A program made the position numbers and the translations under genes. DNA of 18,935 nt, taken from an uncultured bacterium. Its GTDB lineage: Bacteria > Abyssobacteria > SURF-5. Below are positions 310-15,740 of the stretch, piece by piece. The stretch is from positions 1 to 18,935 of the forward strand of contig CAZEBC010000064.1 of the NCBI GenBank assembly GCA_964510165.1. The letters are read 5' to 3'. Each line of letters opens with the position of its first letter. Position 1 is the stretch's first letter. The notes under the pieces were generated by a model, which worked only from the letters and a program-made list of their open reading frames with translations, searched no databases and was not told the origin of the DNA.

Positions 310-2301
310 TCAAAACACTGGTCTGCCGGTCATGGCGCCCGGCGGTTCGATTCCGAATTCTTTCAGGATAGTGGGCGTGATGTCGCGCAGGCGCGGGTCG
401 CCGATGTTCGCCTTTCGGTTGGAGAGGAACACGCCCGGTGTGATCTCTGCGGCGGCGCAATGGTCGCCGCTCCATTTGTTCTTGTTATCAGATACCAGCC
501 CATCCGGGTACGACCCGCTGGCTGATTCCCAGGAGACCCGGTAGCCGCGGTTGTACCCGACGATGGCGTCGGGGGCAGTGCGCTCGTCGGGATTCGTGAA
601 TATGTCCTTGCTCTTGTAGACGCGGAGTATGACCTGTTCGCCGTTTTCGGGGTCGCGCACCTGCAGCAGTTTTTGGGATATCTCATCGAGGAGCTTGTCT
701 TTTTGTGAGGCCGGCACAGGCCCCATGCTTTCGCGGCCCTCAAGGTTGATGTAGAGTCCGTTCAGGCCGAGTGCGTAGGCCTTGGTTCGGTACCAGTTAA
801 CATTCGAGTAGAACTCGCCCTCTTCGTCGTTGGTGAGGGTAGTGTAGCCGTTGTCGCGGAGCCATGTATTGAGGTTGAACCCGCGATAAAAGGGGGCGAA
901 GCCGTGGTCGGATATTACGATGAGTGTGGTTTGGGCGTCGACGCGGCCGAGCGTTTTCCCGAGCACCTTGTCCATTTCCTCGTAGAAGCGATAGAGTGTG
1001 TCGCCGTACTCGGCGGCGAGGTTGGCGTTGTAGAGCGGGTGCTTCGGGTCAATGAGCCACCAGAGCATGTGGGAATTCTGGTCGAGGCTGCCGAAGTAGA
1101 AGAACAGCAGGCCCGAGTCGAATCGGCCGAAAATGTGGTCGAACATCTTGAGGCGTTCCTGCAGGACGATATTGGCCTGTCCGAGGTAGTCCTTGACCTC
1201 GAGCACGTCGGATGAGAGCGCCTTGGTGTCCTCGGGCAGCCCCTGGGTATAGAAGCATCCGATCTCATGGGCGAGGTCGACGCAAAAATCGTCGGGCGTG
1301 GAAATGGGCATCGCGGGGTCGAGCGGGTCGATGTTGATGGGGGAGACATAGAGGCCGAAGTCGGGGTTGACCTCCTTCAGATAGAAACGGCATATTCCGC
1401 TGACGTGCACGAGGTATGGCACAGCGGTGAACTTGATGTGGGTCCACTCGCTCCATTGGCCGACTTTCAGGAGGATTTCCTGGTCCTGTACGACTACCTT
1501 TGCGATACCGTTTTCAGAGTCGGCGTACACGGTGAAAGGGACCTTCAGCCTGGGTTCGTCTTTTTGGAAGCTGTTTTCGGGGCCGACCAGATGAGCCTTG
1601 ACCACGCCGTCGTACACGTCCACCGGGTAGAGCTTTCCACCGGAGATTTCGTCTTCGTCGAACTTGAGGGGATTGTCGGTAAAGAAGGAGAACGTGCCGT
1701 AGGTGCCGAGGATATCGGGCGTGCCCATGTCAGAGAGCGAGATGCCTGGGCTTTCGGCAGGCGGGAAATTGGCGGGCATCTTGATCACCTGAGTGGGGAC
1801 GCCGTGTTCTTCGAGAATCTGCCAGAAGGCCCGTTCGCGGCGGAGCAGGACGGTCTTGCCGCTGGAGAGCGGGATCACCCAGTCACCGAGTGAAATGGTC
1901 TTTGAGGGTGGCAGCGCCTTGCTGGTTGAGAGATAGGGCATGTAGCTGTCGGGCTCGCGATGGATGAAGTCGTAGATGCCGTGTTTACCGGCGTCGGTAC
2001 CTGTGATGAAGTCGGACCAGGCGACGGGGCTCTGCGGCGGTATGCTTGTGCCGAGTCGCAGGTACGAGCCTTCGCGAGCGAGGCGGGCGAAGTTGGGCAT
2101 TCTGCCGTCGGCGATCAGTTTGTCGAGGATGTTGGGGTCCATGCCGTCGATGCCGAGGACTATGACTTTCTTGGAGGGGGCGGCGTCGGAAGAGCAGCCG
2201 AAATGTGAGCCTAGCGCGGCGCCCACGGTTCCGATAGCTGCGGTCTTCAAGAATTCGCGTCGAGAGACGTACCGAAAATCACAATGAGTGTCCCTTGCCA
2301 C
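310..2301 (-). CDS. AlkP-4: alkaline phosphatase superfamily protein (type I phosphodiesterase/NPP-like) with twin-arginine signal, possible Tat lipoprotein
   Basis: SRREFLK Tat motif, hydrophobic stretch and FGC lipobox-like Cys. Motifs GIDG, PPQSPVAWSDFITG (Ser nucleophile position), DQNSH, SDHGF, WSGDH. GTG start with GAGGGG RBS. Confidence 0.88.
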   Translation of the reverse strand: MARDTHCDFRYVSRREFLKTAAIGTVGAALGSHFGCSSDAAPSKKVIVLGIDGMDPNILDKLIADGRMPNFARLAREGSYLRLGTSIPPQSPVAWSDFITGTDAGKHGIYDFIHREPDSYMPYLSTSKALPPSKTISLGDWVIPLSSGKTVLLRRERAFWQILEEHGVPTQVIKMPANFPPAESPGISLSDMGTPDILGTYGTFSFFTDNPLKFDEDEISGGKLYPVDVYDGVVKAHLVGPENSFQKDEPRLKVPFTVYADSENGIAKVVVQDQEILLKVGQWSEWTHIKFTAVPYLVHVSGICRFYLKEVNPDFGLYVSPINIDPLDPAMPISTPDDFCVDLAHEIGCFYTQGLPEDTKALSSDVLEVKDYLGQANIVLQERLKMFDHIFGRFDSGLLFFYFGSLDQNSHMLWWLIDPKHPLYNANLAAEYGDTLYRFYEEMDKVLGKTLGRVDAQTTLIVISDHGFAPFYRGFNLNTWLRDNGYTTLTNDEEGEFYSNVNWYRTKAYALGLNGLYINLEGRESMGPVPASQKDKLLDEISQKLLQVRDPENGEQVILRVYKSKDIFTNPDERTAPDAIVGYNRGYRVSWESASGSYPDGLVSDNKNKWSGDHCAAAEITPGVFLSNRKANIGDPRLRDITPTILKEFGIEPPGAMTGRPVF

Positions 2302-2352: not shown

Positions 2353-4554
2353 TCAAATGTGTAGACCTGACCCCTCTAACACGCCCCTCTGTTCCTTCTT
2401 CAGGAGCGATCTGCCGTCCATGTAGGCGGGCGGTTCGACTCCGAAGATTTCGAGCGCGGTCGGCGCGATGTCGGTTATGTGGATGTCGCGGGCGCGCAGT
2501 TTCCAATTGGAGAAGAAGACGCCGGGCACGAGGGCGGGATCGATGCAGTGGTCGCCACTCCAGCTTTTCGTGTTGTCGTCGAAGACGGCTGCGGTAACCG
2601 TGCCGGTAACGGACTCCCAGGAGGCGCGGTAGCCCGAGTTGTATCCGATGATGAGGTCGGGCGCGTTGTCCTGGTAAGGTCCTGCGTATGTCTTCTCGCT
2701 GTCGTATATATTGAGGATGGCGACCTCGCCGGTTTGTTCGTCCTTCAAGCCGGCGAGTTTGCGTATGAGTTCGTCCTTCAGTTGGCGGGCTTGCTCGCCG
2801 GGCTCGACGACGCCGCGCGCCTCACGGCCCTTGAGGTTGAGGTAGAGCCCACCAAGCCCGAGCGCGAAGGCCTTTGTGTTGGCCCAATCTACGTTCTTGA
2901 ACCATTCGCCGCCCGGCTGGCCGTCGGTGAGGCGGAGGTAGCCGTTCTTGTGGAGCCAGGAGTTGAGGTTGACGCCGCGCCGGAACGAGTTGAAGCCGTG
3001 GTCGGACATGATGATGAGCACGTCGTTGTCGCCGAGTTTGTCGAGTGCGCGTCCGACAAGTTTGTCCATCTCGACGTAGAGGTTTTCGATGGCGCCCTTG
3101 AAGCGTTCGGTGTCCTTGTCGCGGTTGGCGGGGTGCTTGTGGTCGAGGTAACGCCAGAACAGGTGCTGGATTCTGTCGGTAATGTCGAACACGCAGACGC
3201 ACAGGCCTCGCCGCGTTTTTTGGAGCGCGTCGAAGAACATCTTTTCGCGTTCCTGCTGGATGAGGTAGCACTGTTTTTCGAAGGCGGCCTCCTCGATGAT
3301 GCGCTCATTGATGGCCCATGTGTCTTCGGCCAGGCCGAGGGTGGCGTAGCGGCCAAACAGTTTTGAGAGGTAGATGGAATAGATGAACGGGTGCGAGATC
3401 GGCAGCGCGGGTTTGGCCGGGTCTATGTTGATGGGGGTCATATACATCTCGAAGTGGGGGTCGGTCTCCTTGAGGAGCAACCGGCATATGCCCTTGACCT
3501 TCACGCCTGGCGCTGCCTTGAACGAGAGCGGGAGCCAGTCGGAGTATTCGCCCTTACGAAGGGGGACTGTTTGACCGTCGAGTCGAAGCTCGGCGGCATC
3601 GGCGCCGTTGAGCGCGACCTCGAACGGGATTTTCATCGTGACGGGGTTCTTGAGCATCGTGTTTTCGGGTCCGTTTATATGTGAGGAGATGCGGCTGCCG
3701 TTGCGCTGGACGCGGATTTCGGTTCCACCGGTGTAGTGGCCCTCGCTTCTTTCGCGGGTGGTGTAGTGGGTAAATGAACCCTGGGTGCCATGCAGGTCGG
3801 GCACGCACATTGCGGAGAGCAGCACTCCCCTGAACTTCTCGGGCGGGAACGTGATGGGGACCCTGATGACCGAGGAAAAGAGGCCGTGCTCGCCAAGGAT
3901 GGTCCAGAACGGCTTGCTCTTGCGCAGGAGCCGGATGTCGGGTTTTCCGAGCGGGACCGCGTATTTTCCGAGCGAAAGTGTTTTTGATGCCTTTCCTATG
4001 TGCGCGGAGGAGAGGTCGGGCAGATAGGTCTTCTTGTCGCGCGCCAGGAAATCGTAGATATTGTGGCGGCCGGGGTTAGCGCCAGTCATGAAGGAAGACC
4101 ATGCGACCGGCGAGATGGGAGGGCAGGTGGTGTTGAGTCGGCTGTAGGTTCCTGTTTCTTTCAATCTGGCGAAGTTGGGCAGCTTGCCCTCCGAGATGAA
4201 TGTGTCCACGAGGTTGGGGTCGAGACCGTCGAGGCCCATTATGACCATTCGGTTTGCGAGGCTCTTGCCATAGGCTTTCTTGCTTCGAAGACCTCGGAAG
4301 ATATAACGGATGGGCCATGCAAGGATGGAAAAGAATGCGAGAAAGATTGCCAGGAAGACGACGAAAAACGACGTCAGGAAGGCGAATCCGGCCCCGGGCC
4401 CGATGTAGGCGTGGGCCTGGGCGGGAAGCAATGCCACTGCGACGAGGGCGAGAGTGAGAGCAGCCAGAGTGTGGATTGAGGAGCGATTGGCGTGTGAGGG
4501 CGCACGCCGTGAGCCCCTACGATGTGGTCGAGAAGGGAGAGGATACGTGCGCAT
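2353..4554 (-). CDS. AlkP-3: membrane-anchored alkaline phosphatase superfamily protein (NPP-like) with signal peptide-YIGPG-TM module
   Basis: Signal peptide ending AQAHA, then YIGPGAG, a Phe-rich TM helix and a basic stretch (RYIFRGLRSKK). Motifs GLDG, PPISPVAWSSFMTG, DRIQH, SDHGF, WSGDH. ATG lies 6 nt after the upstream stop. Confidence 0.88.
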   Translation of the reverse strand: MRTYPLPSRPHRRGSRRAPSHANRSSIHTLAALTLALVAVALLPAQAHAYIGPGAGFAFLTSFFVVFLAIFLAFFSILAWPIRYIFRGLRSKKAYGKSLANRMVIMGLDGLDPNLVDTFISEGKLPNFARLKETGTYSRLNTTCPPISPVAWSSFMTGANPGRHNIYDFLARDKKTYLPDLSSAHIGKASKTLSLGKYAVPLGKPDIRLLRKSKPFWTILGEHGLFSSVIRVPITFPPEKFRGVLLSAMCVPDLHGTQGSFTHYTTRERSEGHYTGGTEIRVQRNGSRISSHINGPENTMLKNPVTMKIPFEVALNGADAAELRLDGQTVPLRKGEYSDWLPLSFKAAPGVKVKGICRLLLKETDPHFEMYMTPINIDPAKPALPISHPFIYSIYLSKLFGRYATLGLAEDTWAINERIIEEAAFEKQCYLIQQEREKMFFDALQKTRRGLCVCVFDITDRIQHLFWRYLDHKHPANRDKDTERFKGAIENLYVEMDKLVGRALDKLGDNDVLIIMSDHGFNSFRRGVNLNSWLHKNGYLRLTDGQPGGEWFKNVDWANTKAFALGLGGLYLNLKGREARGVVEPGEQARQLKDELIRKLAGLKDEQTGEVAILNIYDSEKTYAGPYQDNAPDLIIGYNSGYRASWESVTGTVTAAVFDDNTKSWSGDHCIDPALVPGVFFSNWKLRARDIHITDIAPTALEIFGVEPPAYMDGRSLLKKEQRGVLEGSGLHI
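4498..4520 (-). repeat. GTAG-family REP palindrome (copy 2), inside the 5' end of the AlkP-3 CDS
   Basis: Minus strand GTAGGGGCTCACGGCGTGCGCCC; same GTAGGGGC...GCCC frame as copies 1 and 3, with one stem mismatch. Confidence 0.7.
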
Positions 4555-4560
4555 TACTTC

Positions 4561-5871
4561 TCAGTACTCCATATATTGCAGGATGATCTGGGCCACGTCG
4601 GTGATATTAGGGTTTTCGGGAGGTTGTTGAGCCGACCATAGGAAGGCGTCGTCCCAGGTGTGCATCCCCGTGAGGGGAGTTCTCCCGAAGAGATCCTTGC
4701 GCTTTGGTGAGCCTTTGACGTCGTAGCCGTATTTTGAGACGACCACAAGGTCGGGGCCCTGCTCGGCAAATGGTCCGTCGTAGGCCTCTGCACGTTCAAA
4801 CACTTTCTCGACCACTGTCTCGCCGTCGAACGAGAGTTCGCTCAGGCCGGCCTTTATGTCGGCGGTTATGGGACGGACGTCTTCGGGTTTGACGCAGCCC
4901 TTTGGATATTTCCCGACGAGGTTGAGATAGATGCGCGAGGGGTCGAGCGCGAAAGCTCGGGAGCCTTCGGAGATCGCCTCGATCATGTCGGCATCGTCCT
5001 TCTCCAGTCGAAGGAAGCCCTCCTTCTTGAGCCACGCGTTGAGGTAGAACTCCTGTTTAACGCTCGTGAACCCGTGGTCCGAAAGGATGAAGAAGCCCGG
5101 CGTCGGGTCTTCGGCGTTAATGAGGCGCTTGAAGCGCGCGTGGAGCGATGCGATGAATGAGTCCACTCGCCGGTAATACCGGAGAAACGCCTCGTGGTGC
5201 GGATGGGAGGTGTTATCGAGCGCGTCCCAGAGGTAGTGATGGAGCCTGTCGGTGCCGGTGACTACGACTTCGAAGAGGTCCCATTTCTCGCTGTCCCACA
5301 GGGCGGAGACGGTTCGTTCGCGGGCGTCGAGGGTGCGGAACAGTTCATTGACGAGATAGGCGTGGTCTTCGCGGGCACGCATCGTGTCGATGTCGATTAT
5401 GTAGCCATCCTGCTCGAGCCGCGGCAGAAGCTGGGGGGGATGGACGGCCTTCTTGAGACTCAGCGCTACGAAGCCGGAGATGAGGACGCCTTCGATCGGG
5501 CGCGCCGGATAGGTGGACGGTTGATTGACGACGACACTCCGTTTCTTGGTTTCGGCCAGCTTGTCCCAGATAGTGGGCGCGCGCAGGTCGTTGAATGTGG
5601 GAAATCGGAGGCTGTATGAATGCGGCTTGAGGTCGGTAAAGCCGAAGATAGAGTGTCCGCCGGGGTTCTTGCCGGTCATGAAGCTGGGCCAGCTTACGGC
5701 GGATATTTCGGGCAGCGTGACCTGCATCTTGCTGAGGTGGCCGGTGCGCACGATTTCGGCGAGCGCCGGCATTGTGCCGTCCTGTGTGAATCGTTTGACG
5801 AGAGAGTAGGGGACACCGTCCAGCCCGAGCACACAGACGGGTTTTTTCTTTCTGCTCCAGAATGGGGTCAT
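4561..5871 (-). CDS. AlkP-2: cytoplasmic alkaline phosphatase superfamily protein (NPP-like)
   Basis: GLDG, PEISAVSWPSFMTG, DRLHH, SDHGF and TGMH motifs. No signal peptide; the catalytic beta strand begins at about residue 12. Confidence 0.88.
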   Translation of the reverse strand: MTPFWSRKKKPVCVLGLDGVPYSLVKRFTQDGTMPALAEIVRTGHLSKMQVTLPEISAVSWPSFMTGKNPGGHSIFGFTDLKPHSYSLRFPTFNDLRAPTIWDKLAETKKRSVVVNQPSTYPARPIEGVLISGFVALSLKKAVHPPQLLPRLEQDGYIIDIDTMRAREDHAYLVNELFRTLDARERTVSALWDSEKWDLFEVVVTGTDRLHHYLWDALDNTSHPHHEAFLRYYRRVDSFIASLHARFKRLINAEDPTPGFFILSDHGFTSVKQEFYLNAWLKKEGFLRLEKDDADMIEAISEGSRAFALDPSRIYLNLVGKYPKGCVKPEDVRPITADIKAGLSELSFDGETVVEKVFERAEAYDGPFAEQGPDLVVVSKYGYDVKGSPKRKDLFGRTPLTGMHTWDDAFLWSAQQPPENPNITDVAQIILQYMEY

Positions 5872-6081: not shown

Positions 6082-6681
6082 CTAGATGTATCCGAGGGAG
6101 CGGAGGCGCTCCTTGATCTTTGCTTCTTCTTCCTCGGTGTATTCGTCGGTTTCGGCAGCGGGGATATAGTTCATGAGTTCCAGGGTGCGTATGATCTTGT
6201 TGACGCTTTCCTGGATGGTTTCCTTGTCGGTCTCGACGACGACTTCGGGATTGAGGGGGTCTTCGTACGGGTCGTCCACTCCGGTGAAATGCTTGATTTC
6301 CCCTTTGAGCGCCTTTTCATAGAGGCCCTTCGGGTCGCGGTCCTTCAGGACGGGGACCGGGCATTTGCAGAACACCTCGACGAAGGAGCCTATGAGCTTG
6401 CGGTTCTCATCTCGAATCGCCCGATACGGCGAGATAGCGGCGGCGATGGCGATGACATCGTTTCGGGTGAGCAGGTGGCACACAAACCCGATCCGCCTGA
6501 TATTGATGTCGCGGTCTTCCTTAGAGAAGCCGAGGCCTTTGCTCAGGTTTTGTCTGACGACGTCGCCGTCGAGCACTTCGACCTTGAGACCTCTTTCGAG
6601 CAGCACATCCTCGATCCGGCGCGACAGCGTGGTCTTGCCGGAGCCTGACAAACCGGTAAACCAGAGAGTGAAGCCCTTCAT
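6082..6681 (-). CDS. cysC: Adenylyl-sulfate (APS) kinase with extra acidic LxxLGY tail
   Basis: [13 protein letters not shown]-loop, [31 protein letters not shown] and FTGVDDPYE motifs. AGGAGG RBS. Confidence 0.97.
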
Positions 6682-6699
6682 GCGTGTTCCTCCTTTGAA

Positions 6700-8076
6700 C
6701 TAGACGGCAGGCTTGCCGATCATTTCCTGCGGTATCTCTATGTTGAAGTGGCGGAGAATCGAGGGAGCGATATCATAAATGGAACACGCTTTCGGTCCGC
6801 CGGGCGTTATGCGCGAGTCGCGCCAGACGAATATGCCGTTCTCGGCGTGGTTGGCGTCATCAGGGCCTGTATCGTTCTCGTAGAGATAGACCGAGCCTAC
6901 GCCGACCGAGCCCGCCGAGCGCCAGTCCAGGTTGCCGAGGTAGACGATGAGGTCGGGCGGGATGCCGTTGGTTTCGCGGTAGACCTCCTCGGGCTTGAAG
7001 ACCTTGGTGTTTATGCATTTGCCATTTTCGTCCTCGATGCCCTCGAGCCGCGCCTTGAGTTCATTGCGGACGGTTTCGTATTCATTCTTCGGGATGACGC
7101 CGCCTGGCTCCCTGTCCTTCACGTTCATGAAGACCCGGCTGTAATAGCCGCCCTCGCCCCAGGCCCTGGTCTTGCTCCAGTCGACCATGCTGGTTTTGAA
7201 GCGGGTTCGTTGGGCGGGCTTTTCCTTGAGCGCAAGATACCCTTCTCGCTGGAACCATTCGTTTATGCAGATTGCGCCTTCCATGGTCTTTGCGCCGTGG
7301 TCGGAGACAACCATGACGGAGGTGTCGCCGGGCAGCGAGTCGAGGGTCCTTCCGATCTCGGCGTCCACGCTGACGTAATAATCATGGATTGCGTGTTCGT
7401 ATTTGTTGCCTGGCTCATACAGCCGGTGCTTCTTGTCGAAGTATCGCCAGAACCCGTGGTGAATGCGGTCGATGCCCATCTCGACCATGATTGCGAAATC
7501 GTAGGAATCCTTGTTGTAAAAATGCCGGAACGCCTTGAAGCGGCGTTCGGTCATGGTGTAGATGGCCTTGAGGAGGTCATCCTTTTCGTCGGTCCTGAAG
7601 TCCTCGACGTCAATGATGTAGTTGCCGTCCGCGGCCTGGTCGAGTTCGGCCTTTATCTCGTCGGGGTACGTATACTGGACGTCCTTGCCGGGAGTGAGGA
7701 AGCAGGCGACGAGCGCGCCGTTGAGCGGCTTGGGGGGATAGGTTTGCGGGACGCCGAAGACGAGTGAGCGCAGCCGGTTTCGGGAAAGGATGTTCCATAC
7801 GGTTTTCGCTTTGACGTACTTTGCATTGGCGAAATAGAGATCCTCGTAGTCATAGCTCTTGCGGTTACGGAAGCCGTAAAAGCCGAGCATGCCCGGGTCC
7901 TGTGAGGTCATCATGGCAGTCCACGCCGGCACGGTGATGGGCGGCAGGGTGGACTTGAGCGGGCCGTACATGCCATCCCGCACGAGTCGCTTTATGTTTG
8001 GCAGATCATCGAGCCACTGGTTGAAGACGAGGTCGGGTTCGGCACAGTCAAGGCCGAATATGAGCAGTTTTGACAC
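6700..8076 (-). CDS. AlkP-1: cytoplasmic alkaline phosphatase superfamily protein (NPP-like) between sat and cysC
   Basis: GLDC, PPITVPAWTAMMTS (Thr nucleophile position), DRIHH, SDHGA and DDANH motifs. GTG start with AGGAG RBS. No signal peptide. Confidence 0.88.
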   Translation of the reverse strand: MSKLLIFGLDCAEPDLVFNQWLDDLPNIKRLVRDGMYGPLKSTLPPITVPAWTAMMTSQDPGMLGFYGFRNRKSYDYEDLYFANAKYVKAKTVWNILSRNRLRSLVFGVPQTYPPKPLNGALVACFLTPGKDVQYTYPDEIKAELDQAADGNYIIDVEDFRTDEKDDLLKAIYTMTERRFKAFRHFYNKDSYDFAIMVEMGIDRIHHGFWRYFDKKHRLYEPGNKYEHAIHDYYVSVDAEIGRTLDSLPGDTSVMVVSDHGAKTMEGAICINEWFQREGYLALKEKPAQRTRFKTSMVDWSKTRAWGEGGYYSRVFMNVKDREPGGVIPKNEYETVRNELKARLEGIEDENGKCINTKVFKPEEVYRETNGIPPDLIVYLGNLDWRSAGSVGVGSVYLYENDTGPDDANHAENGIFVWRDSRITPGGPKACSIYDIAPSILRHFNIEIPQEMIGKPAV

Positions 8077-8088
8077 GGTAAATGACTC

Positions 8089-9249
8089 CTATCCTTCTTG
8101 TCGAAAAGGTCGAAAGGATTGAACCAGGATTTCGGCCACTTCGGGCCTTGTGAATTCGGGAGGCGGCATGATCCCCTGCCTCAACATCTCGCGGACCTTC
8201 GTGCCGCTGAGCATCAGGTGATCGCGCGAATTGTGAGGGCACGTCTTGACGGATGCCATTCCGCCGCACGCTCTGCAAAAGAACGCGTTGTCGAAGAACA
8301 ACGGGGTGATCCCGAGTTCGTCGGGTTCGAACTCGTTGAAGATATAGTGAGCGTCGAAGGGTCCGTAATAAGAGCCGACGCCCGCATGGTCGCGACCCAC
8401 GATAAAGTGGGTGCACCCGTAGTTCTTCCTGATGATGGCGTGGAATATCGCTTCCCTTGGTCCGGCGTAGCGCATGGCTGCGGGAAAGACGGAGAGGGCG
8501 ACTCGCGTCTTGGGATAATATTTTTCGAGGAGAACCTCATAGCATTTCATCCTGACTTCCGGCGGGATATCGTCGCCCTTGGTCTCGCCGACAAGAGGAT
8601 GAATCAATATGGCGTCGACCATCTCGAGCGCGCATTTCTGGAGGTACTCGTGCGCGCGGTGTATCGGGTTTCGAGTCTGGAAGGCGGCAACGTGACGCCA
8701 TCCCTTCATCTTGAACAGGAGGCGGGTTTCCTTGGGGTCGAGCCTGTACTCGTTCAGGATCCTATGGATTGGACGATTGAGCAGGGTAATCGGTCCGCCG
8801 AGATACACACCGCCGACGCTTTTGAGGTACCGATTACCGGGATGCGCCTCGTCGGTGGTCTGCAACACCTTCTGGCCTTCATATTCCTTGTCGACCTCGT
8901 ACTTGTCCTCCAGGTGAAGGACGCCGAGGAGGCTTCCGGCCTCGTCACGCATGGCCACATCGCTGCCGATCTCATAGTCGGCGTTGGAGTCTTTGACAGC
9001 GAGCGTGACGGGAATAGTCCAGGGCAGTCCCTTGGCCAGCCTCATGAGGTCCAGGACGCTCACGTAGTCCTCTTTCGACATGAAACCCTCGAGCGGACTC
9101 AGGGCGCCCACAGCCATCATCTCGAGGTCGGAGACTTCTCTGGAGTTCAGGGTTATGGACGGCATCGCAAGCGCGCGCTCGCAGAGGGCCTCGCGCTGAG
9201 AGCCCTCAGCCACGCGGTTTATGAGCCGTCCGCCGTGAGGTTTAATCAT
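8089..9249 (-). CDS. sat: Sulfate adenylyltransferase (ATP sulfurylase, Sat type)
   Basis: [48 protein letters not shown], CxxC..CPH zinc site and SGTKVR motifs. Confidence 0.97.
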
Positions 9250-9574: not shown

Positions 9575-10735
9575 TCAGCCGAAGAACAGGGACCTCCTTT
9601 TCTTCAGCAATGAGTCCACCATGTCTTGCACCGTTGCTCGAAGCTGTCGGTTCAGGCGATTGATGATGACGTTATCGTTGAGAGCCGACTCGTCATATTC
9701 ATCGTACCTGATGACAGAGCCGAACTGAATGTACCACTTCGTGGGAAGGGGGATAAAGCCCAGCGGTCCCAGCCACGGGAACGTGGCGGAAAGCGGAAAC
9801 AGTGGCATCCCGAACATTTTCCCCAGCCAGTTGGCGTATCCGAGCACGATGTATATTTCCTCCGCGCCGACGACGGCGGTCGGTATCACAGGCGCCCGTG
9901 TCCGGATGGCAAGCCGAATGACGCCGCCGCGTCCGAAGCGGGCGAGGTTATAGCGGTTCTTGAATCCCTTGGCCATCCCCTTGATGCCTTCGGGGAACAC
10001 ACCGACAAGCTGTTCCTGCCTGAGCAGCCTCTCGGCGTTTTCCTGGCACGCCCTGACCTGGCCGACGGCGGTCATGAATTCGCTGGCGAACGGAAGCCGC
10101 CCAAACCAGTCTTCGATCATGAACCTAGTATACCGTTCGGCGGGATGGAATTTGTAGATGGCGGTCGCGATCATGGCGCCGTCGAACGGGAGCACGCCCG
10201 AGTGGTTGGAGACGATGAGCGCGCGCCCTTCATTCGGGATGTTCTTAAGCCCTTCGGTGGTCACCCGCCAGTATTTCTTGTAGAGGAACATCATGATTTT
10301 TTCCAGAGTGGTATCCACGTCGGGCACTTTGCCGAACTCGTCCATGCGTTCGAGGTGGTCAATGAGTTCATCGTAGTCTTGAGGAGGCGCGCCGGGCACG
10401 GCGGACAGGAGCTTTCCCAAGAGTCCCCGCTTCCTCCTCTTTCTTGCTTTTTCCAGACGGGTGGAGGGTCTGAGTTTCTTTATCTCGATGTCGGCGTCCT
10501 CGCCGTTCTCGCTGACGTCGTCTTCCTCTTCAATCTTCAGAGGTTTCAAGCGCCGCTCCAATCTGCTTTCAAGTCTTTGGAGTCTTTCCTCGACCTTTTG
10601 CTCGATTCGGGAAGCTATGTCATCGGCGCCCGCCTGGGGTGAATGTTTGGGATCGTCGTTGGACTTGCCCGAAGCTTTCCTTTTTCTCACGTTATTGGAG
10701 GGTCGAGCGCTTCTCTTTTTTTCTTCGGTAGCCAT
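9575..10735 (-). CDS. Lysophospholipid/glycerol acyltransferase family protein (PlsC-like) with charged N-terminal extension
   Basis: NHSGVLPFDG (HxxxxD), VFPEG, FGRGG and PVIPTAVVGAEE motifs. GAGG RBS. About 130 aa of charged or coiled-coil N-terminus. Confidence 0.9.
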   Translation of the reverse strand: MATEEKKRSARPSNNVRKRKASGKSNDDPKHSPQAGADDIASRIEQKVEERLQRLESRLERRLKPLKIEEEDDVSENGEDADIEIKKLRPSTRLEKARKRRKRGLLGKLLSAVPGAPPQDYDELIDHLERMDEFGKVPDVDTTLEKIMMFLYKKYWRVTTEGLKNIPNEGRALIVSNHSGVLPFDGAMIATAIYKFHPAERYTRFMIEDWFGRLPFASEFMTAVGQVRACQENAERLLRQEQLVGVFPEGIKGMAKGFKNRYNLARFGRGGVIRLAIRTRAPVIPTAVVGAEEIYIVLGYANWLGKMFGMPLFPLSATFPWLGPLGFIPLPTKWYIQFGSVIRYDEYDESALNDNVIINRLNRQLRATVQDMVDSLLKKRRSLFFG

Positions 10736-10756
10736 GAGCGGACCTCACTTTGCTTG

Positions 10757-11848
10757 CTATTCGCCAGTGGCAATACTGGTGAGCGATTCGATGCGTTCCT
10801 CGGTCTCCCGTTCCACCGGGCGTCCGACGCGGCCAAGTCGTTTCCTGTCGAGGAACTCCTCGAGCGCCTCCCAGGCCGTTTTCTTTGCCTCGAAGCCCAT
10901 CACTTCCTTGGCTCGCGAGCCGTCAGCGAGGCAGTGGAACTTGAGGAATTCGAGATGCTCGGGAGGGAACGGACCCTTCTTTGCAATCCAGAGCGCCCTG
11001 AAAAACTGCTCGGCCACGATGTGGGCCATTGGCAGCCGGGGCTTGTTGGCGAGCTTGAGGACCATGCCCAAGGGTATCACGCGTCTGCCGACGATGTTGA
11101 ACACGCCGGGGAAATCCTCGTCGATGGCGAGCTTGAATGCGTCAACCACGTCCTCTTCGGATATGAATTGGATCAAGGGGTTGTACCCGAGAACCGTCGG
11201 ACATACGGGCATGGAGAGATAATGAGTCCAACAGTTGTCTACCGATGGTCCCATGATGCTGCAATGCCTGAGGACCGTGACCATGGTGTCGGGATTGCTT
11301 TTCCAGAACCGGAGCAGTTGCCGCTCGATCTCGATCTTGTCGAGCTGAAACTCATAGATCATGTGCGGCCTGGGGGTGTAGTCCTCGGTCATGTAATGTG
11401 GGTTATCATAGTGCGCGCCATATACCATCGTGCGACTTGCCACCACCAGTTTCTTGACCGGGACCTCGGAGCATGCGGATAGAATGTGCATGGTGCCGAC
11501 GGAGTTGACCTCATGCGCGTAGGTGGTGTCTTCGCTGGGGCGCTGGAAGAAACCGGTGTGAACCACGATGTCCGGCTTCTGTTCGCTCATGATTTCCACG
11601 AGCATCTCATCGGCGCGCGGATTGGTGAGGTCGAGCTTGTAATACTTGGTCTTTCGGAGCTTGAGAGACGGTCTCTTAATGTCCACGGCCACGAGCTTTT
11701 CGTAGCTTGGGTCTGCCTTCAGTCGCTTGAGAATAGTGCTGCCGAGAAAGCCGGACGTGCCTGTCAGCAGGACACGGCGGCCGGATGGCGCTTCGCCCTC
11801 GCTGTCGCCGCCGAACGTTTTTGCGGCGTCTTTGAGTTGAGTGGTCAT
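10757..11848 (-). CDS. NAD-dependent epimerase/dehydratase family (extended SDR) protein
   Basis: TGTSGFLG Rossmann motif, VNSVGT, SRTMVYGA, QFISEED and FNIVG. Start reassigned to ATG 11848 with a GGAGGGGG RBS; the longer ORF N-terminus is low quality. Confidence 0.88.
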   Translation of the reverse strand: MTTQLKDAAKTFGGDSEGEAPSGRRVLLTGTSGFLGSTILKRLKADPSYEKLVAVDIKRPSLKLRKTKYYKLDLTNPRADEMLVEIMSEQKPDIVVHTGFFQRPSEDTTYAHEVNSVGTMHILSACSEVPVKKLVVASRTMVYGAHYDNPHYMTEDYTPRPHMIYEFQLDKIEIERQLLRFWKSNPDTMVTVLRHCSIMGPSVDNCWTHYLSMPVCPTVLGYNPLIQFISEEDVVDAFKLAIDEDFPGVFNIVGRRVIPLGMVLKLANKPRLPMAHIVAEQFFRALWIAKKGPFPPEHLEFLKFHCLADGSRAKEVMGFEAKKTAWEALEEFLDRKRLGRVGRPVERETEERIESLTSIATGE

Positions 11849-11884
11849 TCTCCCCCTCCGAGTGAATCCTTTAGCCTGCCAGAT

Positions 11885-11914
11885 ACTTTGCCATGCCGGA
11901 AAGCCCAATGTCAA
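11885..11914 (-). promoter_or_regulatory. Possible sigma70 promoter for the SDR-acyltransferase pair
   Basis: Minus strand TTGACA (11914-11909), 18 nt spacer ending in TGG, then a weak -10 CAAAGT. Confidence 0.35.
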
Positions 11915-12166
11915 GCGGAGCCGCAGGCTGCCGCAGGAACTGCTCCATCGCGGGCGCCTCGTGCGCGGAGACACGCCCCCCCTTGCGCCCGTGCAAGCAG
12001 ACTCAGTTGATTGAAAACTGCATCACTAATTATATATTCGTTGTTTGTCAATCGCAAGGGGAGATGTGCAGAAAGAATGGATGAGGAGCCTGTCCCGTAG
12101 TCGGGGGCATGCAAGAAATGCGGTGCAGGTGCGAATTCACTCGCCCAGTCTTTATGGCATTGGTCC

Positions 12167-13589: not shown

Positions 13590-13693
13590 TGTTTCTGATT
13601 GCGGCCGGTCAAAGGCGCTCCTGGTTGTCCCAGCCTTCGGCGCCGGCTTCTTCTTTCATAAACTGAAAACATTCTTTTTTGCATAAAACTTAT

Positions 13694-14317
13694 ATGGAAT
13701 CCCTCTGGACTGAGTTTCTCAAAGCGATTACCCCGTTTGTTCGGACGTTCATTCCGATATTTGTGGCGGTGGATGTGATCGGGATGATTCCGCTGTACAC
13801 CGGTTTGACCGGACAGATTCCCAAAAATCACAGGAGCAGGATCGCGGGCCAGTCGATAGTGACCGCGCTCATCATATCGATAGCCTTCCTCTTTGTTGGC
13901 AAGACCATTTTTGAGTTTCTCGGCATAACGGTGGAGGACTTTCAGATAGCGGGCGGGGTGTTGCTGTTCGTGCTGGCGGTGGTGGACTTGATCGGCGGGA
14001 AGACGCTGACGGAGACGACTCCTCAAATGGGTGTGGTGCCGCTTGGCACGCCCCTCATAATCGGCCCGGCGGTGCTCACGGTGCTCATCATGATGTTGGA
14101 CCTTTATGGGATTTGGCCCACCTTGGCGGGAATACTGTTGAACCTGGGACTGGTGGCGCTCGCGCTGTTCAACGCCGAGAGAATACTGAGCGTGATGGGC
14201 GAGAGCGGCGCGAAGGGAACCGCGAAAGTTGTCAGCCTTTTGCTGGCGGCCATTGGGGTGATGATGGTGCGTCGGGGGATTGTCTCGATCATTTTCCGAC
14301 TTGGCGCGGGTTCATGA
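13694..14317 (+). CDS. MarC family (UPF0056) membrane protein
   Basis: FIPIFVAVDVIG, FLGITVEDFQIAGGVLL, VVPLGTPLIIGPA and SLLLAAIGVMM family motifs; about 6 TM segments. Start at ATG 13694, alternatively TTG 13679. Confidence 0.9.
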   Translation: MESLWTEFLKAITPFVRTFIPIFVAVDVIGMIPLYTGLTGQIPKNHRSRIAGQSIVTALIISIAFLFVGKTIFEFLGITVEDFQIAGGVLLFVLAVVDLIGGKTLTETTPQMGVVPLGTPLIIGPAVLTVLIMMLDLYGIWPTLAGILLNLGLVALALFNAERILSVMGESGAKGTAKVVSLLLAAIGVMMVRRGIVSIIFRLGAGS

Positions 14318-14341
14318 CGTGGAGGGATGCCCGCCTGACGG

Positions 14342-15631
14342 TTGGAGTCCGGACAGACATTGACATTTGACAGATATGCGGCCCTCATAATCTTCTTCTG
14401 CACGTATTGCGCGCTGGTCTTTATTCCCCGGCACAGGATGCATTCGGCGCTGGCCGGGGCGTTCCTGCTCTTGGTGTTGGGCGTGGTTGATCCGGGGAAG
14501 GCGTTCCTTCTGATCAACTGGAACGTGATGGGCATTTTCTGGGGAACGCTGGTGGTGGCGGAACTGTTCATGGCCTCGAACACGCCCGCCTACCTGGCGG
14601 AGGTGGTGGTCGAGAGAACCAGCAACGCCGTGTGGGCCATCCTTGCCATCTGCGCGCTCACATCGTTCATTTCGGCGCTCGTCGAGAACGTGGCGACTGT
14701 GCTGATAGTGGCGCCGGTGGCGCTCGCGATTACCGACAGACTCCACATTTCTCCCGTCCCGATGATAATAGGCCTGACCGTCAGCTCAAACCTGCAGGGC
14801 GCCTCGACTTTGATCGGTGACCCGCCCAGCATGCTGCTGGCCGGTTTCGCGAAGCTGACCTTTAACGATTTCTTCATTTACCAGGGCAAGCCGAGCATCT
14901 TTTTTGCCGTTCAGCTTGGAGCGATTACCTCTTTCGCCGCATTGTACTGGATATTCCGGCGGATGCGGCAAGAGGTGCACATCGAGCGCACACAGCGCGT
15001 GCAGAGCTGGACTCCCCCGATCATGCTCGTCGTCATGATCATCCTGCTGGCGCTGTCCTCATTCGCCGACCCGGGCTTCGGGTACATGGCCGGCGCAATA
15101 TGCATGTTGTTCGGGATGGCCGGCTTTGTGTGGTACGCGATATTCCAGAAGGGAAACGTAATCAAACTGTTCACCAGTCTGGATTGGCAGACGACGTTTT
15201 TCCTGATGGGTGTGTTTGTGGTGGTCGGAACGCTGACGGAGGTGGGATGGGTAGAGGATATCACGCTCCTGTTCAAAGGCTTGGCGGGCGACAACGTCTT
15301 TGTGGCATACACGCTCTTGGTGTGGATATCCGTGCTCTTCTCCGCATTCATTGACAATGTGCCGTACCTGCTTGCGATGCTGCCGGTCGCTCAGGGGCTC
15401 GCCGTGAAGCTAGGCGTTTCTGACACGCTGCTGATGTTTGGACTGCTGATTGGTGCCAGCATCGGCGGCAATATCACGCCGATCGGCGCGTCGGCCAACA
15501 TCGTGGGTGTCGGCATTCTCTCAAGGCGAGGCCACCACGTGGGACTTAAGGAGTTCTCGAAAATCGGGCTTCCCTTCACGGTCGTTGCCACCTTGACCGC
15601 TTACGTGTTTCTATGGTTTGTGTGGCGCTGA
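14342..15631 (+). CDS. ArsB/NhaD/SLC13-like (IT superfamily) ion/anion permease
   Basis: ISALVENVATV, SSNLQGASTLIGDPPS, FSAFIDNVP and GGNITPIGASANIV motifs; multiple TM segments. Start uncertain (TTG 14342 or 14360). Confidence 0.88.
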   Translation: MESGQTLTFDRYAALIIFFCTYCALVFIPRHRMHSALAGAFLLLVLGVVDPGKAFLLINWNVMGIFWGTLVVAELFMASNTPAYLAEVVVERTSNAVWAILAICALTSFISALVENVATVLIVAPVALAITDRLHISPVPMIIGLTVSSNLQGASTLIGDPPSMLLAGFAKLTFNDFFIYQGKPSIFFAVQLGAITSFAALYWIFRRMRQEVHIERTQRVQSWTPPIMLVVMIILLALSSFADPGFGYMAGAICMLFGMAGFVWYAIFQKGNVIKLFTSLDWQTTFFLMGVFVVVGTLTEVGWVEDITLLFKGLAGDNVFVAYTLLVWISVLFSAFIDNVPYLLAMLPVAQGLAVKLGVSDTLLMFGLLIGASIGGNITPIGASANIVGVGILSRRGHHVGLKEFSKIGLPFTVVATLTAYVFLWFVWR

Positions 15632-15740
15632 TTCCTTTGTTTGTCGGGAGGTTGTTTCGGCCCGACGCTTCAAATCCACCGCACATCAAAGCTGCGAGGT
15701 CATGACGGATATCCATTCCGACGGTCGGGGCATTCCAAGA

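What the first reader, a model, noticed from the sequence alone, without database searches (positions are those of the whole stretch)
4270..4470. Signal peptide-YIGPGAG-TM module puts an N-terminal tyrosine outside and the AlkP-3 catalytic domain inside
Seen: h-region LAALTLALVAVALLP, an AHA cleavage site directly before Y50 (codon 4405-4407), YIGPGAG, a roughly 25-residue Phe-rich TM helix, then RYIFRGLRSKK. The positive-inside rule predicts an N-out topology with a cytoplasmic enzyme domain, so the signal peptide would export only about 7 residues beginning with Tyr. From recollection, stand-alone small membrane proteins with Y(I/L)(G/D)PG.G motifs occur near envelope-modification loci. Established analogy: Tyr-containing peptide motifs shuttle acyl groups in the DltX/DltB and PatA MBOAT systems. 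Inference: this Tyr may be the membrane-level shuttle passing sulfate to the exported AlkP-4.
Basis: partly seen in the sequence, partly recalled or inferred. Interest (0 to 1): 0.75.

Follow-up and report, generated by a model that had tools for sequence, protein, structure and literature searches.

The report
Signal-peptide Tyr-capped anchor on AlkP enzyme
A phosphatase-family enzyme carries an unusual, invariant N-terminal membrane anchor that should leave a seven-residue tyrosine-led tip outside the cell membrane and the enzyme inside, always partnered with an exported sister enzyme; related tips occur as tiny stand-alone proteins in many bacteria, and nobody knows what they do.

Summary
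The gene (window 2353-4554, minus strand, 733 aa, PF01663) encodes an Arg-rich n-region, a 15-residue h-region, AQAHA|Y50, YIGPGAG, a 26-residue Phe-rich helix, a +7 basic stretch and then the catalytic domain. Y50, G52, P53, G54, A55 and G56 are invariant in 119 homologues, and -1 is Ala in 116 of 119. The predicted topology puts the tip outside and the enzyme inside. No signal-peptide or topology predictor or experiment was available.

New points:
- The database gene call starts 39 codons too late.
- The exported paralogue AlkP-4 follows this gene in 58 of 66 assessable loci, and sits elsewhere in 5 of 5 non-adjacent genomes tested.
- Related AlkP proteins carry Y-I-D-P-G-T-G tips with two helices, which places the enzyme outside.
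- The same tip occurs as about 90 stand-alone peptides of 60-90 aa. One is an unannotated ORF between the NodL-like and NoeA-like ORFs on a S. meliloti megaplasmid. It is also fused to TagF-like and arylsulfotransferase domains. No Pfam or NCBIfam model and no paper found covers it.

The sulfate-shuttle idea is untested and weakly supported. There is no membrane conduit, sat and cysC lie near few loci, and the tip also accompanies methyl- and glycerophospho-transferases.

The parts
2353..4554 (-). AlkP-3 gene, 733 aa (P0001): PF01663 / NPP-like alkaline-phosphatase-superfamily enzyme with the N-terminal module
   Evidence: ORF and translation. PF01663 E 3e-32. AF2 model pLDDT 90.4. Foldseek top hits are NPP, PafA and PhnA.
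4468..4554 (-). Signal-peptide n-region, residues 1-29, 7 Arg and no acidic residue; ATG at 4552-4554
   Evidence: Homologues have a median n-region charge of +3.
4423..4467 (-). Signal-peptide h-region, residues 30-44 (LAALTLALVAVALLP)
   Evidence: The h-core median is 14 residues in 119 homologues. It is a helix at 25-42 in the AF2 model.
4408..4422 (-). c-region AQAHA, residues 45-49, with a predicted signal peptidase I site after A49
   Evidence: Position -1 is A in 116 and G in 3 of 119; -3 is A, L, S, V, T, G or C. Cleavage itself was not tested.
4387..4407 (-). YIGPGAG tip, residues 50-56; Y50 codon 4405-4407
   Evidence: Y50, G52, P53, G54, A55 and G56 are invariant in 119 sequences. 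Low-confidence loop in the AF2 model.
4309..4386 (-). Transmembrane helix, residues 57-82 (8 Phe), ending W80-P81
   Evidence: F57, A58, S62, F63, W80 and P81 are invariant or at least 90% conserved. Part of helix 55-96 in the AF2 model.
4249..4308 (-). Basic juxtamembrane segment, residues 83-102, net +7
   Evidence: Net +4 to +11 in 119 homologues.
2356..4248 (-). Catalytic domain, residues 103-733, predicted to be cytoplasmic. The distance from Y50 to GLDG is 56-58 residues in all 119 homologues.
310..2301 (-). AlkP-4 (P0003, 663 aa): exported paralogue (Tat motif SRREFLK, possible lipobox Cys36), 42% identical to AlkP-3 over 623 residues
   Evidence: It is the next gene in 58 of 66 assessable loci. 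Homologues have N-terminal hydrophobic signals in 27 of 27 assessed.
4561..5871 (-). AlkP-2 (P0002, 436 aa), PF01663, no signal or anchor; its stop lies 6 nt before the AlkP-3 ATG
   Evidence: It lies upstream of AlkP-3 in 13 of 86 assessable loci.
6082..9249 (-). cysC (6082-6681), AlkP-1 (6700-8076) and sat (8089-9249): PAPS synthesis genes interleaved with a fourth PF01663 gene

Best explanation
The segment is a procoat-like (type I) N-terminal membrane anchor.

Inferred insertion and topology:
- A canonical Sec-type signal peptide (residues 1-49) inserts as a hairpin together with the following hydrophobic helix.
- Signal peptidase I cuts after AQAHA.
- The mature protein then begins with Y50-IGPGAG at the outer face of the inner membrane, spans the membrane once (F57-I82), and is held by a +7 basic juxtamembrane helix.
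- The NPP-like AlkP-3 catalytic domain, which starts only about 20 residues after the helix, therefore sits on the cytoplasmic face.

Shown:
- The sequence grammar and its invariance.
- The constant geometry of the module.
- The pairing with an exported paralogue, AlkP-4.
- The tip also exists without a signal peptide (M-x(0-15)-Y...), with two helices before the AlkP domain, as stand-alone peptides of 60-90 aa, and fused to other enzymes.

Inferred only: cleavage, topology and the role of the tip.

My committed reading of the tip is as follows. The 7 invariant residues, together with the conserved outer-leaflet half of the helix (G54, A55, G56, F57, A58, S62, F63), form a recognition surface rather than a mere topogenic signal. 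It is most likely a docking or positioning element that couples an enzyme on the inside to an alkaline-phosphatase-superfamily enzyme on the outside (AlkP-4 here, NoeB-like proteins elsewhere). I give about 0.6 to the anchor and topology part and about 0.25 to the docking role.
For: - Grammar and charges. Position -1 is A/G in 119 of 119. Position -3 is small or aliphatic. The h-core median of 14 residues is too short for a stable span. There is no K or R around the tip in 101 of 119 homologues. The 20 residues after the helix carry +4 to +11.
- Constant spacing: Y to the first charged residue is 33-37 residues, and Y to GxDG is 56-58.
- Invariance of the tip equals that of the catalytic residues.
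- Signal-peptide-less natural variants place the N-terminus at the same Tyr, for example M-Y-IGPGAGF in L031 and MIF-Y in L008. By my crude rule, 18 of 120 loci lack a signal peptide.
- Among the 150 representatives, the G-type tip goes with one helix (37 of 40) and the D-type tip with two helices (16 of 18). The tip is therefore always on the same, non-basic side, whichever side the enzyme lies on.
- TagF-like (PF04464) fusions have the tip, one helix and a basic stretch. By general knowledge these enzymes need cytoplasmic CDP-glycerol. This independently argues that the C-terminal side is cytoplasmic.
- Partner: an AlkP-4-type gene follows in 58 of 66 assessable loci. In 5 of 5 genomes without an adjacent copy, one exported AlkP-4-type gene lies elsewhere. 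AlkP-4 homologues have a hydrophobic N-terminal run in 27 of 27, a Tat-like motif in 6 and a lipobox-like Cys in 12.
- Stand-alone peptides sit upstream of NoeA-like proteins, which are followed by PF00884 (AlkP-superfamily) membrane proteins in 6 of 10 tested.
Against: - No signal-peptide or topology predictor and no experiment was available. Cleavage after A49 is a rule-based inference.
- The AF2 model gives the 43-54 loop low confidence and says nothing about cleavage.
- Sequence similarity between this module and the stand-alone peptides is not significant on its own. The small-peptide HMM scores P0001 at 4.5 bits and finds nothing on contig C64 of the window's genome at E<=10.
- The hhalign probability of 79.6% owes 17.6 of its 23.8 score units to the 7-residue motif on which the peptide set was selected. 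With the motif masked it falls to 4.4%.
- A docking role has no direct support. The tip is also kept in proteins with no obvious exported AlkP partner within the 8-kb loci.
- NPP-type enzymes are typically extracytoplasmic (general knowledge), so a cytoplasmic one is less usual.
Confidence: 0.6

Rival explanations
1. Uncleaved two-helix hairpin. The h-region stays as a first transmembrane helix, AQAHA-YIGPGAG is a tight periplasmic turn rich in Gly and Pro, and both ends are cytoplasmic. The catalytic domain is still inside, but there is no free N-terminal Tyr.
For: - The AF2 model has two helices (25-42 and 55-96) joined by a loop.
- Gly and Pro are classical turn formers (general knowledge).
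- The charge distribution fits equally well.
Against: - The h-core median is 14 residues (range 3-18), short for a stable span.
- The strict A/G at -1 and the small or aliphatic -3 with a variable -2 is the signal peptidase I pattern.
- The first helix is dispensable in nature: signal-peptide-less forms start 0-15 residues before the Tyr.
- The upstream sequence is not conserved beyond its grammar.
Confidence: 0.2
2. The exposed Tyr is a covalent carrier, analogous to DltX or PatA, that passes sulfate (or phosphate) made available inside to the exported AlkP-4.
For: - The Tyr is invariant in a terminal extracytoplasmic motif.
- The motif exists both as a stand-alone microprotein and fused, as the FXYXXF shuttle motif does in DltX versus PatA.
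- There is a constant exported partner with a hydrolase-type nucleophile.
- sat and cysC lie in this locus.
- Tip fusions to arylsulfotransferase domains, which use phenolic sulfate esters as donors (general knowledge).
Against: - No polytopic conduit comparable to MBOAT or AT3 is encoded in the window. A single helix cannot pass a charged group across the membrane.
- The catalytic domain and the Tyr are predicted to lie on opposite sides.
- Matches to the window's sat or cysC proteins appear in only 11 and 13 of the 120 8-kb loci.
- The most frequent neighbours of the stand-alone peptides are kinase/methyltransferase-like proteins, and the commonest fusions are TagF-like.
- The motif is unlike FXYXXF and is N-terminal rather than C-terminal.
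Confidence: 0.08
3. The gene really starts at GTG V40, as in the database call. There is no signal peptide, only a short N-tail (M-ALLPAQAHA-Y...) and a single N-out helix.
For: - A gene caller chose this start (P0004, 694 aa).
- Signal-peptide-less natural variants exist.
Against: - The in-frame upstream 39 codons encode a textbook n-region and h-region.
- The same grammar precedes the Tyr in about 102 of 120 loci and in about 115 of 119 homologues.
- The ATG at 4552-4554 lies 6 nt after the upstream stop codon.
Confidence: 0.05
4. The catalytic domain is periplasmic like its paralogue. The second hydrophobic stretch does not stop transfer, or acts as a second export signal.
For: - NPP-like enzymes and the paralogue AlkP-4 are exported.
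- Relatives with two helices put the domain outside.
Against: - A 26-residue uncharged helix is followed by net +7 within 20 residues, and by +4 to +11 in all 119 homologues.
- The variants that put the domain outside have an extra helix. That would be unnecessary if one helix were enough.
Confidence: 0.05

Closest known systems
Small ORF of the nodL-noeA-noeB type neighbourhood (Lani_1193/1194/1195 neighbourhood of PMC9758233)
   Same: - Stand-alone peptides have a signal peptide, A-x-A|Y-[IL]-D-P-G-T-G-S, one helix and a basic amphipathic tail.
- On S. meliloti pSmeSM11c such an ORF (L241:3218-3466...VPAHA|YLDPGTGS...) lies between a NodL-like and a NoeA-like ORF, followed by a 555-aa PF00884 ORF.
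- The architecture and the motif positions match the window's module.
   Different: - The window has Gly for Asp and Ala for Thr, and is fused to a PF01663 enzyme.
- Direct HMM similarity is not significant (4.5 bits).
- In the paper I read section 8 and passages. It names conserved neighbours but does not describe the peptide or its motif in the main text. Its supplements were not readable, so I did not confirm that Lani_1193 is this peptide.
DltX / PatA C-terminal FXYXXF acyl-shuttle motif (PMC12148441, passages read)
   Same: - An invariant Tyr in a short extracytoplasmic terminal motif next to a membrane helix.
- It occurs either as a microprotein or fused.
- It works with an extracytoplasmic hydrolase-fold partner.
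   Different: - There the motif is C-terminal, has a different sequence, carries acyl groups, and depends on a polytopic MBOAT (or AT3) that gives the cytoplasmic donor access to the Tyr.
- No such protein is encoded in this window, and no chemistry is shown here.
M13 procoat / type I signal-peptide plus stop-transfer insertion (recalled textbook knowledge, no call)
   Same: A cleavable leader, a very short translocated segment without basic residues, one helix and a basic cytoplasmic side.
   Different: Procoat is a 73-aa phage coat precursor. Here the cytoplasmic side is a 630-aa enzyme, and the translocated segment is an invariant 7-residue motif.
NPP / PafA / PhnA enzymes of the alkaline-phosphatase superfamily (PF01663)
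   Same: - Fold: Foldseek E 3e-11 to 1e-8, probability 1.00.
- Pfam match.
- Invariant Asp, His and Thr positions.
   Different: - 10-13% identity and no PDB sequence match.
- A large beta-rich insertion, roughly residues 170-390.
- Membrane-anchored and predicted to be cytoplasmic.
- Substrate unknown.
C-terminal sorting signals (PEP-CTERM, PGF-CTERM, GlyGly-CTERM; recalled)
   Same: Tripartite layout: a short Pro/Gly motif, a hydrophobic helix and a basic cluster.
   Different: Those signals lie at the C-terminus of exported proteins and are removed by sortase-like enzymes. Here the layout is N-terminal and is followed by the whole enzyme.

Membership tests
PF01663 / NPP-like alkaline-phosphatase superfamily | Profile match above the curated cut-off | tested here: met
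   113 bits against a cut-off of 23.
PF01663 / NPP-like alkaline-phosphatase superfamily | AlkP-type fold | tested here: met
   AF2 pLDDT 90.4. Foldseek top hits are Xac NPP, ENPP1, PafA and PhnA with probability 1.00.
PF01663 / NPP-like alkaline-phosphatase superfamily | Conserved metal-ligand Asp and His residues and a Thr nucleophile | tested here: inconclusive
   D109, D460, H464, D518, H519, D668 and H669 are invariant, and T142 and T143 are at least 90% conserved. Mapping them onto the NPP ligands is from recollection, not from a residue-level superposition.
Sec-type signal peptide cleaved by signal peptidase I | Positive n-region, h-region of about 7-15 residues, small residues at -1 and -3 | tested here: met
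   Window: 7 Arg, a 15-residue h-region, A at -3 and A at -1. Among 119 homologues, -1 is A or G in all 119.
Sec-type signal peptide cleaved by signal peptidase I | Actual cleavage | not testable with these tools
   No predictor or proteomic data was available.
Y-x-[DG]-P-G-x-G N-terminal peptide/module (uncharacterised; NoeA-neighbour peptides) | The motif lies at the mature or true N-terminus and is followed by one helix and a basic amphipathic stretch | tested here: met
Y-x-[DG]-P-G-x-G N-terminal peptide/module (uncharacterised; NoeA-neighbour peptides) | Statistically supported sequence relatedness | tested here: inconclusive
   - Small-peptide HMM: P0001 scores 4.5 bits. D-type AlkP modules, which were not selected on the motif, score E 1e-5 to 8.5e-4, and one G-type module (P0165) scores E 3e-3.
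- Reverse HMM: 8 peptides rank before the first of 35,074 decoys, best E 6e-4.
- hhalign gives 79.6%, but the score is mostly the motif.
DltX/PatA-type Tyr acyl shuttle | FXYXXF motif at an extracytoplasmic C-terminus | tested here: not met
   The motif here is YIGPGAG and is N-terminal.
DltX/PatA-type Tyr acyl shuttle | MBOAT or AT3 partner and an SGNH partner | tested here: not met
   None appears among the Pfam hits of 16 window ORFs.
C-terminal sorting signals (PEP-CTERM and similar) | Located at the C-terminus of an exported domain | tested here: not met
   The module is N-terminal, with about 630 residues following it.

The most novel reading that the evidence does not exclude
The Tyr-led tip (Y-x-[DG]-P-G-x-G) defines a widespread, undescribed class of membrane microproteins and modules. 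Its few extracytoplasmic residues would physically or chemically couple a cytoplasmic transferase (AlkP-3, NoeA-like kinase/methyltransferase, TagF-like) to an extracytoplasmic alkaline-phosphatase-superfamily enzyme (AlkP-4, NoeB-like). In the boldest form, the Tyr is a covalent phosphoryl or sulfuryl carrier, a DltX-like shuttle for non-acyl groups.
Probability: 0.1. Interest if true: 0.85.

Novelty: new variant of a known kind. Interest (0 to 1): 0.58.

Why it matters
If the reading holds, three things follow.

1. A conserved way of anchoring cytoplasmic-face envelope enzymes. A cleaved signal peptide is spent on exporting only seven invariant residues.

2. A strictly co-occurring inside/outside pair of paralogous NPP-like enzymes in many uncultured phyla (Planctomycetota, Acidobacteriota, Aminicenantes, Krumholzibacteriota and others). 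This points to an unknown two-sided membrane pathway, linked to PAPS synthesis in this genome.

3. A common peptide element that ties this pair to the long-unexplained noeA/noeB nodulation genes and to TagF-like and arylsulfotransferase fusions. This gives a concrete, mutable handle (Y50, G52, P53) on systems whose chemistry has never been shown.

It also corrects a mis-called start codon that hides the signal peptide in database entries.

Tried and rejected
- Complex prediction of AlkP-4 (residues 36-663, alignment A3) with the mature AlkP-3 module (residues 50-104, alignment A1). Verdict 'no answer', score 0.00 against a mark of 0.32, and the controls were not run. This counts neither for nor against binding.
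- Search for the motif elsewhere in the window's genome (4.17 Mb, 325 contigs). It gave one real copy, this gene, plus one hit in a 71-aa ORF with no hydrophobic stretch after it, which I judged to be chance.
- 'Shorter' homologue search with residues 28-100. It returned 22 proteins. Of the 13 whose sequences I read, 12 are fragments of the same family and only P0145 (84 aa, YIGPGMG) looks like a stand-alone form; the other 9 were not read.
- HMM of the stand-alone peptides against all 35,074 ORFs of at least 60 aa in the window's genome. It gave no hit to this gene at E<=10.
- Literature. Twelve motif strings gave 0 papers. 'COG3379' gave 1 unrelated paper.
- PDB by sequence: no match at E<=0.01.
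- NCBIfam and Pfam on four stand-alone peptides: only sub-threshold, unrelated hits.
- C-terminal sorting-signal analogy: rejected on position.
- Earlier-findings look-ups by place and by sequence: nothing found.
Full report
**1. What is there**

The finding lies at the 5' end of a 733-codon gene on the minus strand (window 2353-4554). The protein matches PF01663 (type I phosphodiesterase / nucleotide pyrophosphatase; 113 bits). Its AlphaFold2 model (pLDDT 90.4) resembles NPP, PafA and PhnA by Foldseek (probability 1.00, 10-13% identity). No PDB chain matches by sequence.

The N-terminus reads as follows:
- M1 to T29, with seven Arg and no acidic residue
- L30-AALTLALVAVALLP44
- A45-QAHA49
- Y50-IGPGAG56
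- F57 to I82, 26 uncharged residues with 8 Phe, ending in W80-P81
- R83-YIFRGLRSKKAYGKSLANR102, net +7
- V103-IMGLDG, the first strand of the catalytic domain

The Tyr codon is at 4405-4407.

**2. Start codon**

The public gene call for this sequence (P0004, 694 aa) begins at GTG V40, inside the h-region. No other ATG, GTG or TTG lies between M1 and V40. The ATG at 4552-4554 follows the stop codon of the upstream PF01663 gene by 6 nt. Homologues keep a hydrophobic stretch upstream of the Tyr. I therefore take M1 as the start. Four homologues with only 7 residues before the Tyr (P0022, P0101, P0114, P0122) may be similar mis-calls.

**3. Conservation**

- The 120 best homologues share 56-78% identity and come from sources labelled Poribacteria, Abyssobacteria, Acidobacteriota, Aminicenantes, Armatimonadota and others. 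Of these, 119 have Y-[IVA]-G-P-G-x-G in the first 120 residues. The exception, P0026, is a call that starts inside the helix.
- In the 119-row alignment A1 I left out P0004 and P0026. There, Y50, G52, P53, G54, A55 and G56 are invariant. A49, F57, A58, S62, W80 and R83 are at least 90% conserved, and F63 and P81 are invariant.
- Upstream grammar. Position -1 is A in 116 and G in 3. Position -3 is A 81, L 23, S 6, V 4, T 2, G 2, C 1. Position -2 is variable. The h-core median is 14 residues and the n-region charge median is +3.
- Geometry. Y to the first charged residue is 33-37 residues. Y to GxDG is 56-58 residues. The next 20 residues carry +4 to +11.
- The stretch from -6 to +7 holds no K or R in 101 of 119.
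Of these, 117 match this protein by blastx; L029 and L110 are cut by the locus end and L052 is a 60-aa ORF.

**4. Topology**

By the (-3,-1) rule and the positive-inside rule (established knowledge), this is a cleavable Sec signal peptide followed directly by a stop-transfer helix. The tip would lie outside and the enzyme inside.

Independent support:
- By a crude rule, 18 of 120 loci lack the signal peptide, and several start 0-15 residues before the Tyr, for example M-YIGPGAGF in L031. The first helix is therefore dispensable, while the position of the N-terminus is kept.
- Of the 150 representatives at 35-55% identity, 14 are fragments, 59 carry a tip and 77 do not. Of those 77, 17 are Tat-like, 39 have another hydrophobic N-terminus and 21 have none. 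G-type tips have one helix before the domain (37 of 40). D-type tips (Y-I-D-P-G-[TS]) have two (16 of 18). The tip therefore always faces the non-basic side.
- The same tip, one helix and a basic stretch precede PF04464 TagF-like domains. By general knowledge these use cytoplasmic CDP-glycerol.

None of this is an experiment, and I could not run SignalP or DeepTMHMM.

**5. The partner**

AlkP-4 (window 310-2301; P0003) is 42% identical to AlkP-3 over 623 residues. It has a Tat motif (SRREFLK; TIGR01409 22.8 bits against a cut-off of 16.7) and a possible lipobox Cys36.

- In 58 of 66 loci with a complete AlkP-3 and at least 600 bp downstream, an AlkP-4-type gene follows on the same strand.
- I searched five of the eight exceptions genome-wide. 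All five hold exactly two matches: the AlkP-3 gene and one AlkP-4-type gene elsewhere. The latter has a lipoprotein-like or Tat-like N-terminus.
- Of 29 full-length AlkP-4 sequences, 27 could be assessed. All 27 have a hydrophobic N-terminal run of at least 8 residues, 6 have a Tat-like motif and 12 a lipobox-like Cys. The other two visibly have signal peptides.
- AlkP-2 lies upstream in 13 of 86 assessable loci and cysC in 3 of 86. Matches to the window's sat and cysC proteins appear in 11 and 13 of the 120 8-kb loci.

The inside/outside pair is thus the conserved core. The link to PAPS synthesis holds in a minority of loci, which includes this window.

**6. The tip beyond this family**

A pattern for AYIDPGTG found at least 120 loci.
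- I judged 6 to be chance, because no hydrophobic stretch follows the motif or the motif lies inside a large unrelated ORF.
- 95 lie in ORFs with at most 131 residues from the motif to the stop or the locus end. Of these, 89 are complete.
- 19 are fused to larger proteins.
- The small ORFs read: signal peptide, A-x-A|YIDPGTGS, a helix with Gln at +11, then [FY]-W-x-[RK]-[IV]-K and a basic tail.
- By the same crude rule, 80 of 114 have a signal peptide.

Pfam scans of ten examples gave no family for 4 small ORFs, PF04464 for 3 fusions, arylsulfotransferase (PF14269 and PF05935) for 2 fusions from Nanoarchaeota, and PF01663 for 1. The remaining fusions of about 400 aa look TagF-like by eye only. 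NCBIfam has no model either. The 101 homologues of one small ORF are all 'hypothetical' or unnamed (one is labelled HemY), with no Pfam domain.

The gene after the small ORF is most often a protein of about 460 aa with the SFRDP signature and class I methyltransferase hits. The signature is present in 42 of 73, and Methyltransf_23 matches 18 of 73 at E<1e-3. PF01663 follows in 6, sulfatase in 3 and ASST in 1. The gene after that is PF00884 in 6 of 10 tested.

One such neighbour matches 57 Sinorhizobium megaplasmids (34% identity in the 12 S. meliloti records listed). On pSmeSM11c, an ORF not listed in PLSDB's gene table for that record (L241:3218-3466...VPAHA|YLDPGTGS...) lies between a NodL-like and a NoeA-like ORF. 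A 555-aa PF00884 ORF follows.

This matches leads from earlier notes of this scan. It also matches the conserved Lani_1193/1194/1195 (NoeA/NoeB) neighbourhood described in PMC9758233. I read section 8 and passages of that paper. The peptide's motif is not described in its main text, and its supplements were closed.

**7. Is the window's module the same thing as the stand-alone peptides?**

The architecture and the motif register agree, but the statistics are weak.
- The small-peptide HMM scores P0001 at 4.5 bits and finds nothing on contig C64 at E<=10.
- The same HMM does hit D-type AlkP modules that were not selected on the motif (E 1e-5 to 8.5e-4 at Z=35,074) and one G-type module (P0165, E 3e-3).
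- An HMM of 151 AlkP-family modules carrying the G-type (Y-x-G-P-G-x-G) tip ranks 8 small peptides ahead of the first of 35,074 decoys (best E 6e-4).
- hhalign gives 79.6% (P 1.5e-5) in register, but 17.6 of the 23.8 score units come from the motif. With the motif masked the probability is 4.4%.

I therefore call it the same kind of module, probably related through the D-type AlkP forms. Homology is not proven.

**8. Mechanism**

Most likely (about 0.6), this is a procoat-like type I anchor that fixes an NPP-like enzyme to the cytoplasmic face. The mature N-terminus would be Tyr50.

The tip is as invariant as the catalytic residues. It is kept across different fused enzymes and on whichever side the enzyme lies. 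A purely topogenic role therefore seems insufficient. My best guess (about 0.25) is a docking surface toward the extracytoplasmic AlkP-superfamily partner.

In those systems an invariant Tyr in a C-terminal FXYXXF motif is loaded through an MBOAT (PMC12148441, passages). Here no MBOAT or AT3 protein is encoded in the window. The enzyme and the Tyr are predicted to lie on opposite sides. The tip's usual companions are not sulfate enzymes.

**9. Novelty**

Signal peptide plus stop-transfer anchoring is known. This invariant Tyr-led tip, its distribution, and the AlkP-3/AlkP-4 inside/outside pair are not described in Pfam or NCBIfam. They are also not described in the 8.4 million full texts searched with twelve motif strings.

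Noticed in passing
window 4435-4554 (minus strand): The public gene call for this gene (P0004, 694 aa) starts at GTG V40 and so removes the signal peptide. Several homologues with only 7 residues before the Tyr may carry the same mis-call.
   Followed up: partly
window 310-2301 (minus strand): AlkP-4 has a Tat motif (SRREFLK) followed by ...LGSHFG-C36, a possible lipobox. Only about 11 residues separate C36 from the first strand. Both paralogues would therefore sit tightly on opposite faces of the same membrane.
   Followed up: partly
L241:3218-3466 (S. meliloti pSmeSM11c): An 83-codon open frame (its first Met 71 codons before the stop), absent from PLSDB's gene table for that record, encodes ...VPAHA|YLDPGTGS, a helix and a basic tail. 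It lies between a NodL-like and a NoeA-like ORF, upstream of a 555-aa PF00884 ORF (the NoeB position).
   Followed up: partly
L133:4693-5985 and L215:1898-3280 (Nanoarchaeota MAGs): The Tyr-led tip (AYIDPGTGG), followed by two hydrophobic stretches, is fused to arylsulfotransferase (ASST) domains.
   Followed up: no
window 9575-11974 (minus strand): A PlsC-type acyltransferase with an N-terminal extension of about 150 aa, and an NAD-dependent epimerase/dehydratase, lie directly upstream of sat. This suggests that the locus modifies a lipid or a sugar-lipid.
   Followed up: no
window 13679-18029 (plus strand): A divergent gene set: a MarC-family membrane protein, a CitMHS/ArsB-type anion permease (a possible sulfate importer), and an 803-aa protein with a spermidine-synthase-like domain at residues 319-446.
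   Followed up: no
P0145 (84 aa, metagenome): The only candidate for a stand-alone G-type tip found: ...LAVHA|YIGPGMG, a helix and an RRRKPKEEK tail.
   Followed up: no
P0001 residues about 170-390: A large beta-rich insertion splits the PF01663 match into two stretches. It is shared with AlkP-4 but absent from the 436-aa and 458-aa AlkP-2 and AlkP-1. Its function is unknown.
   Followed up: no
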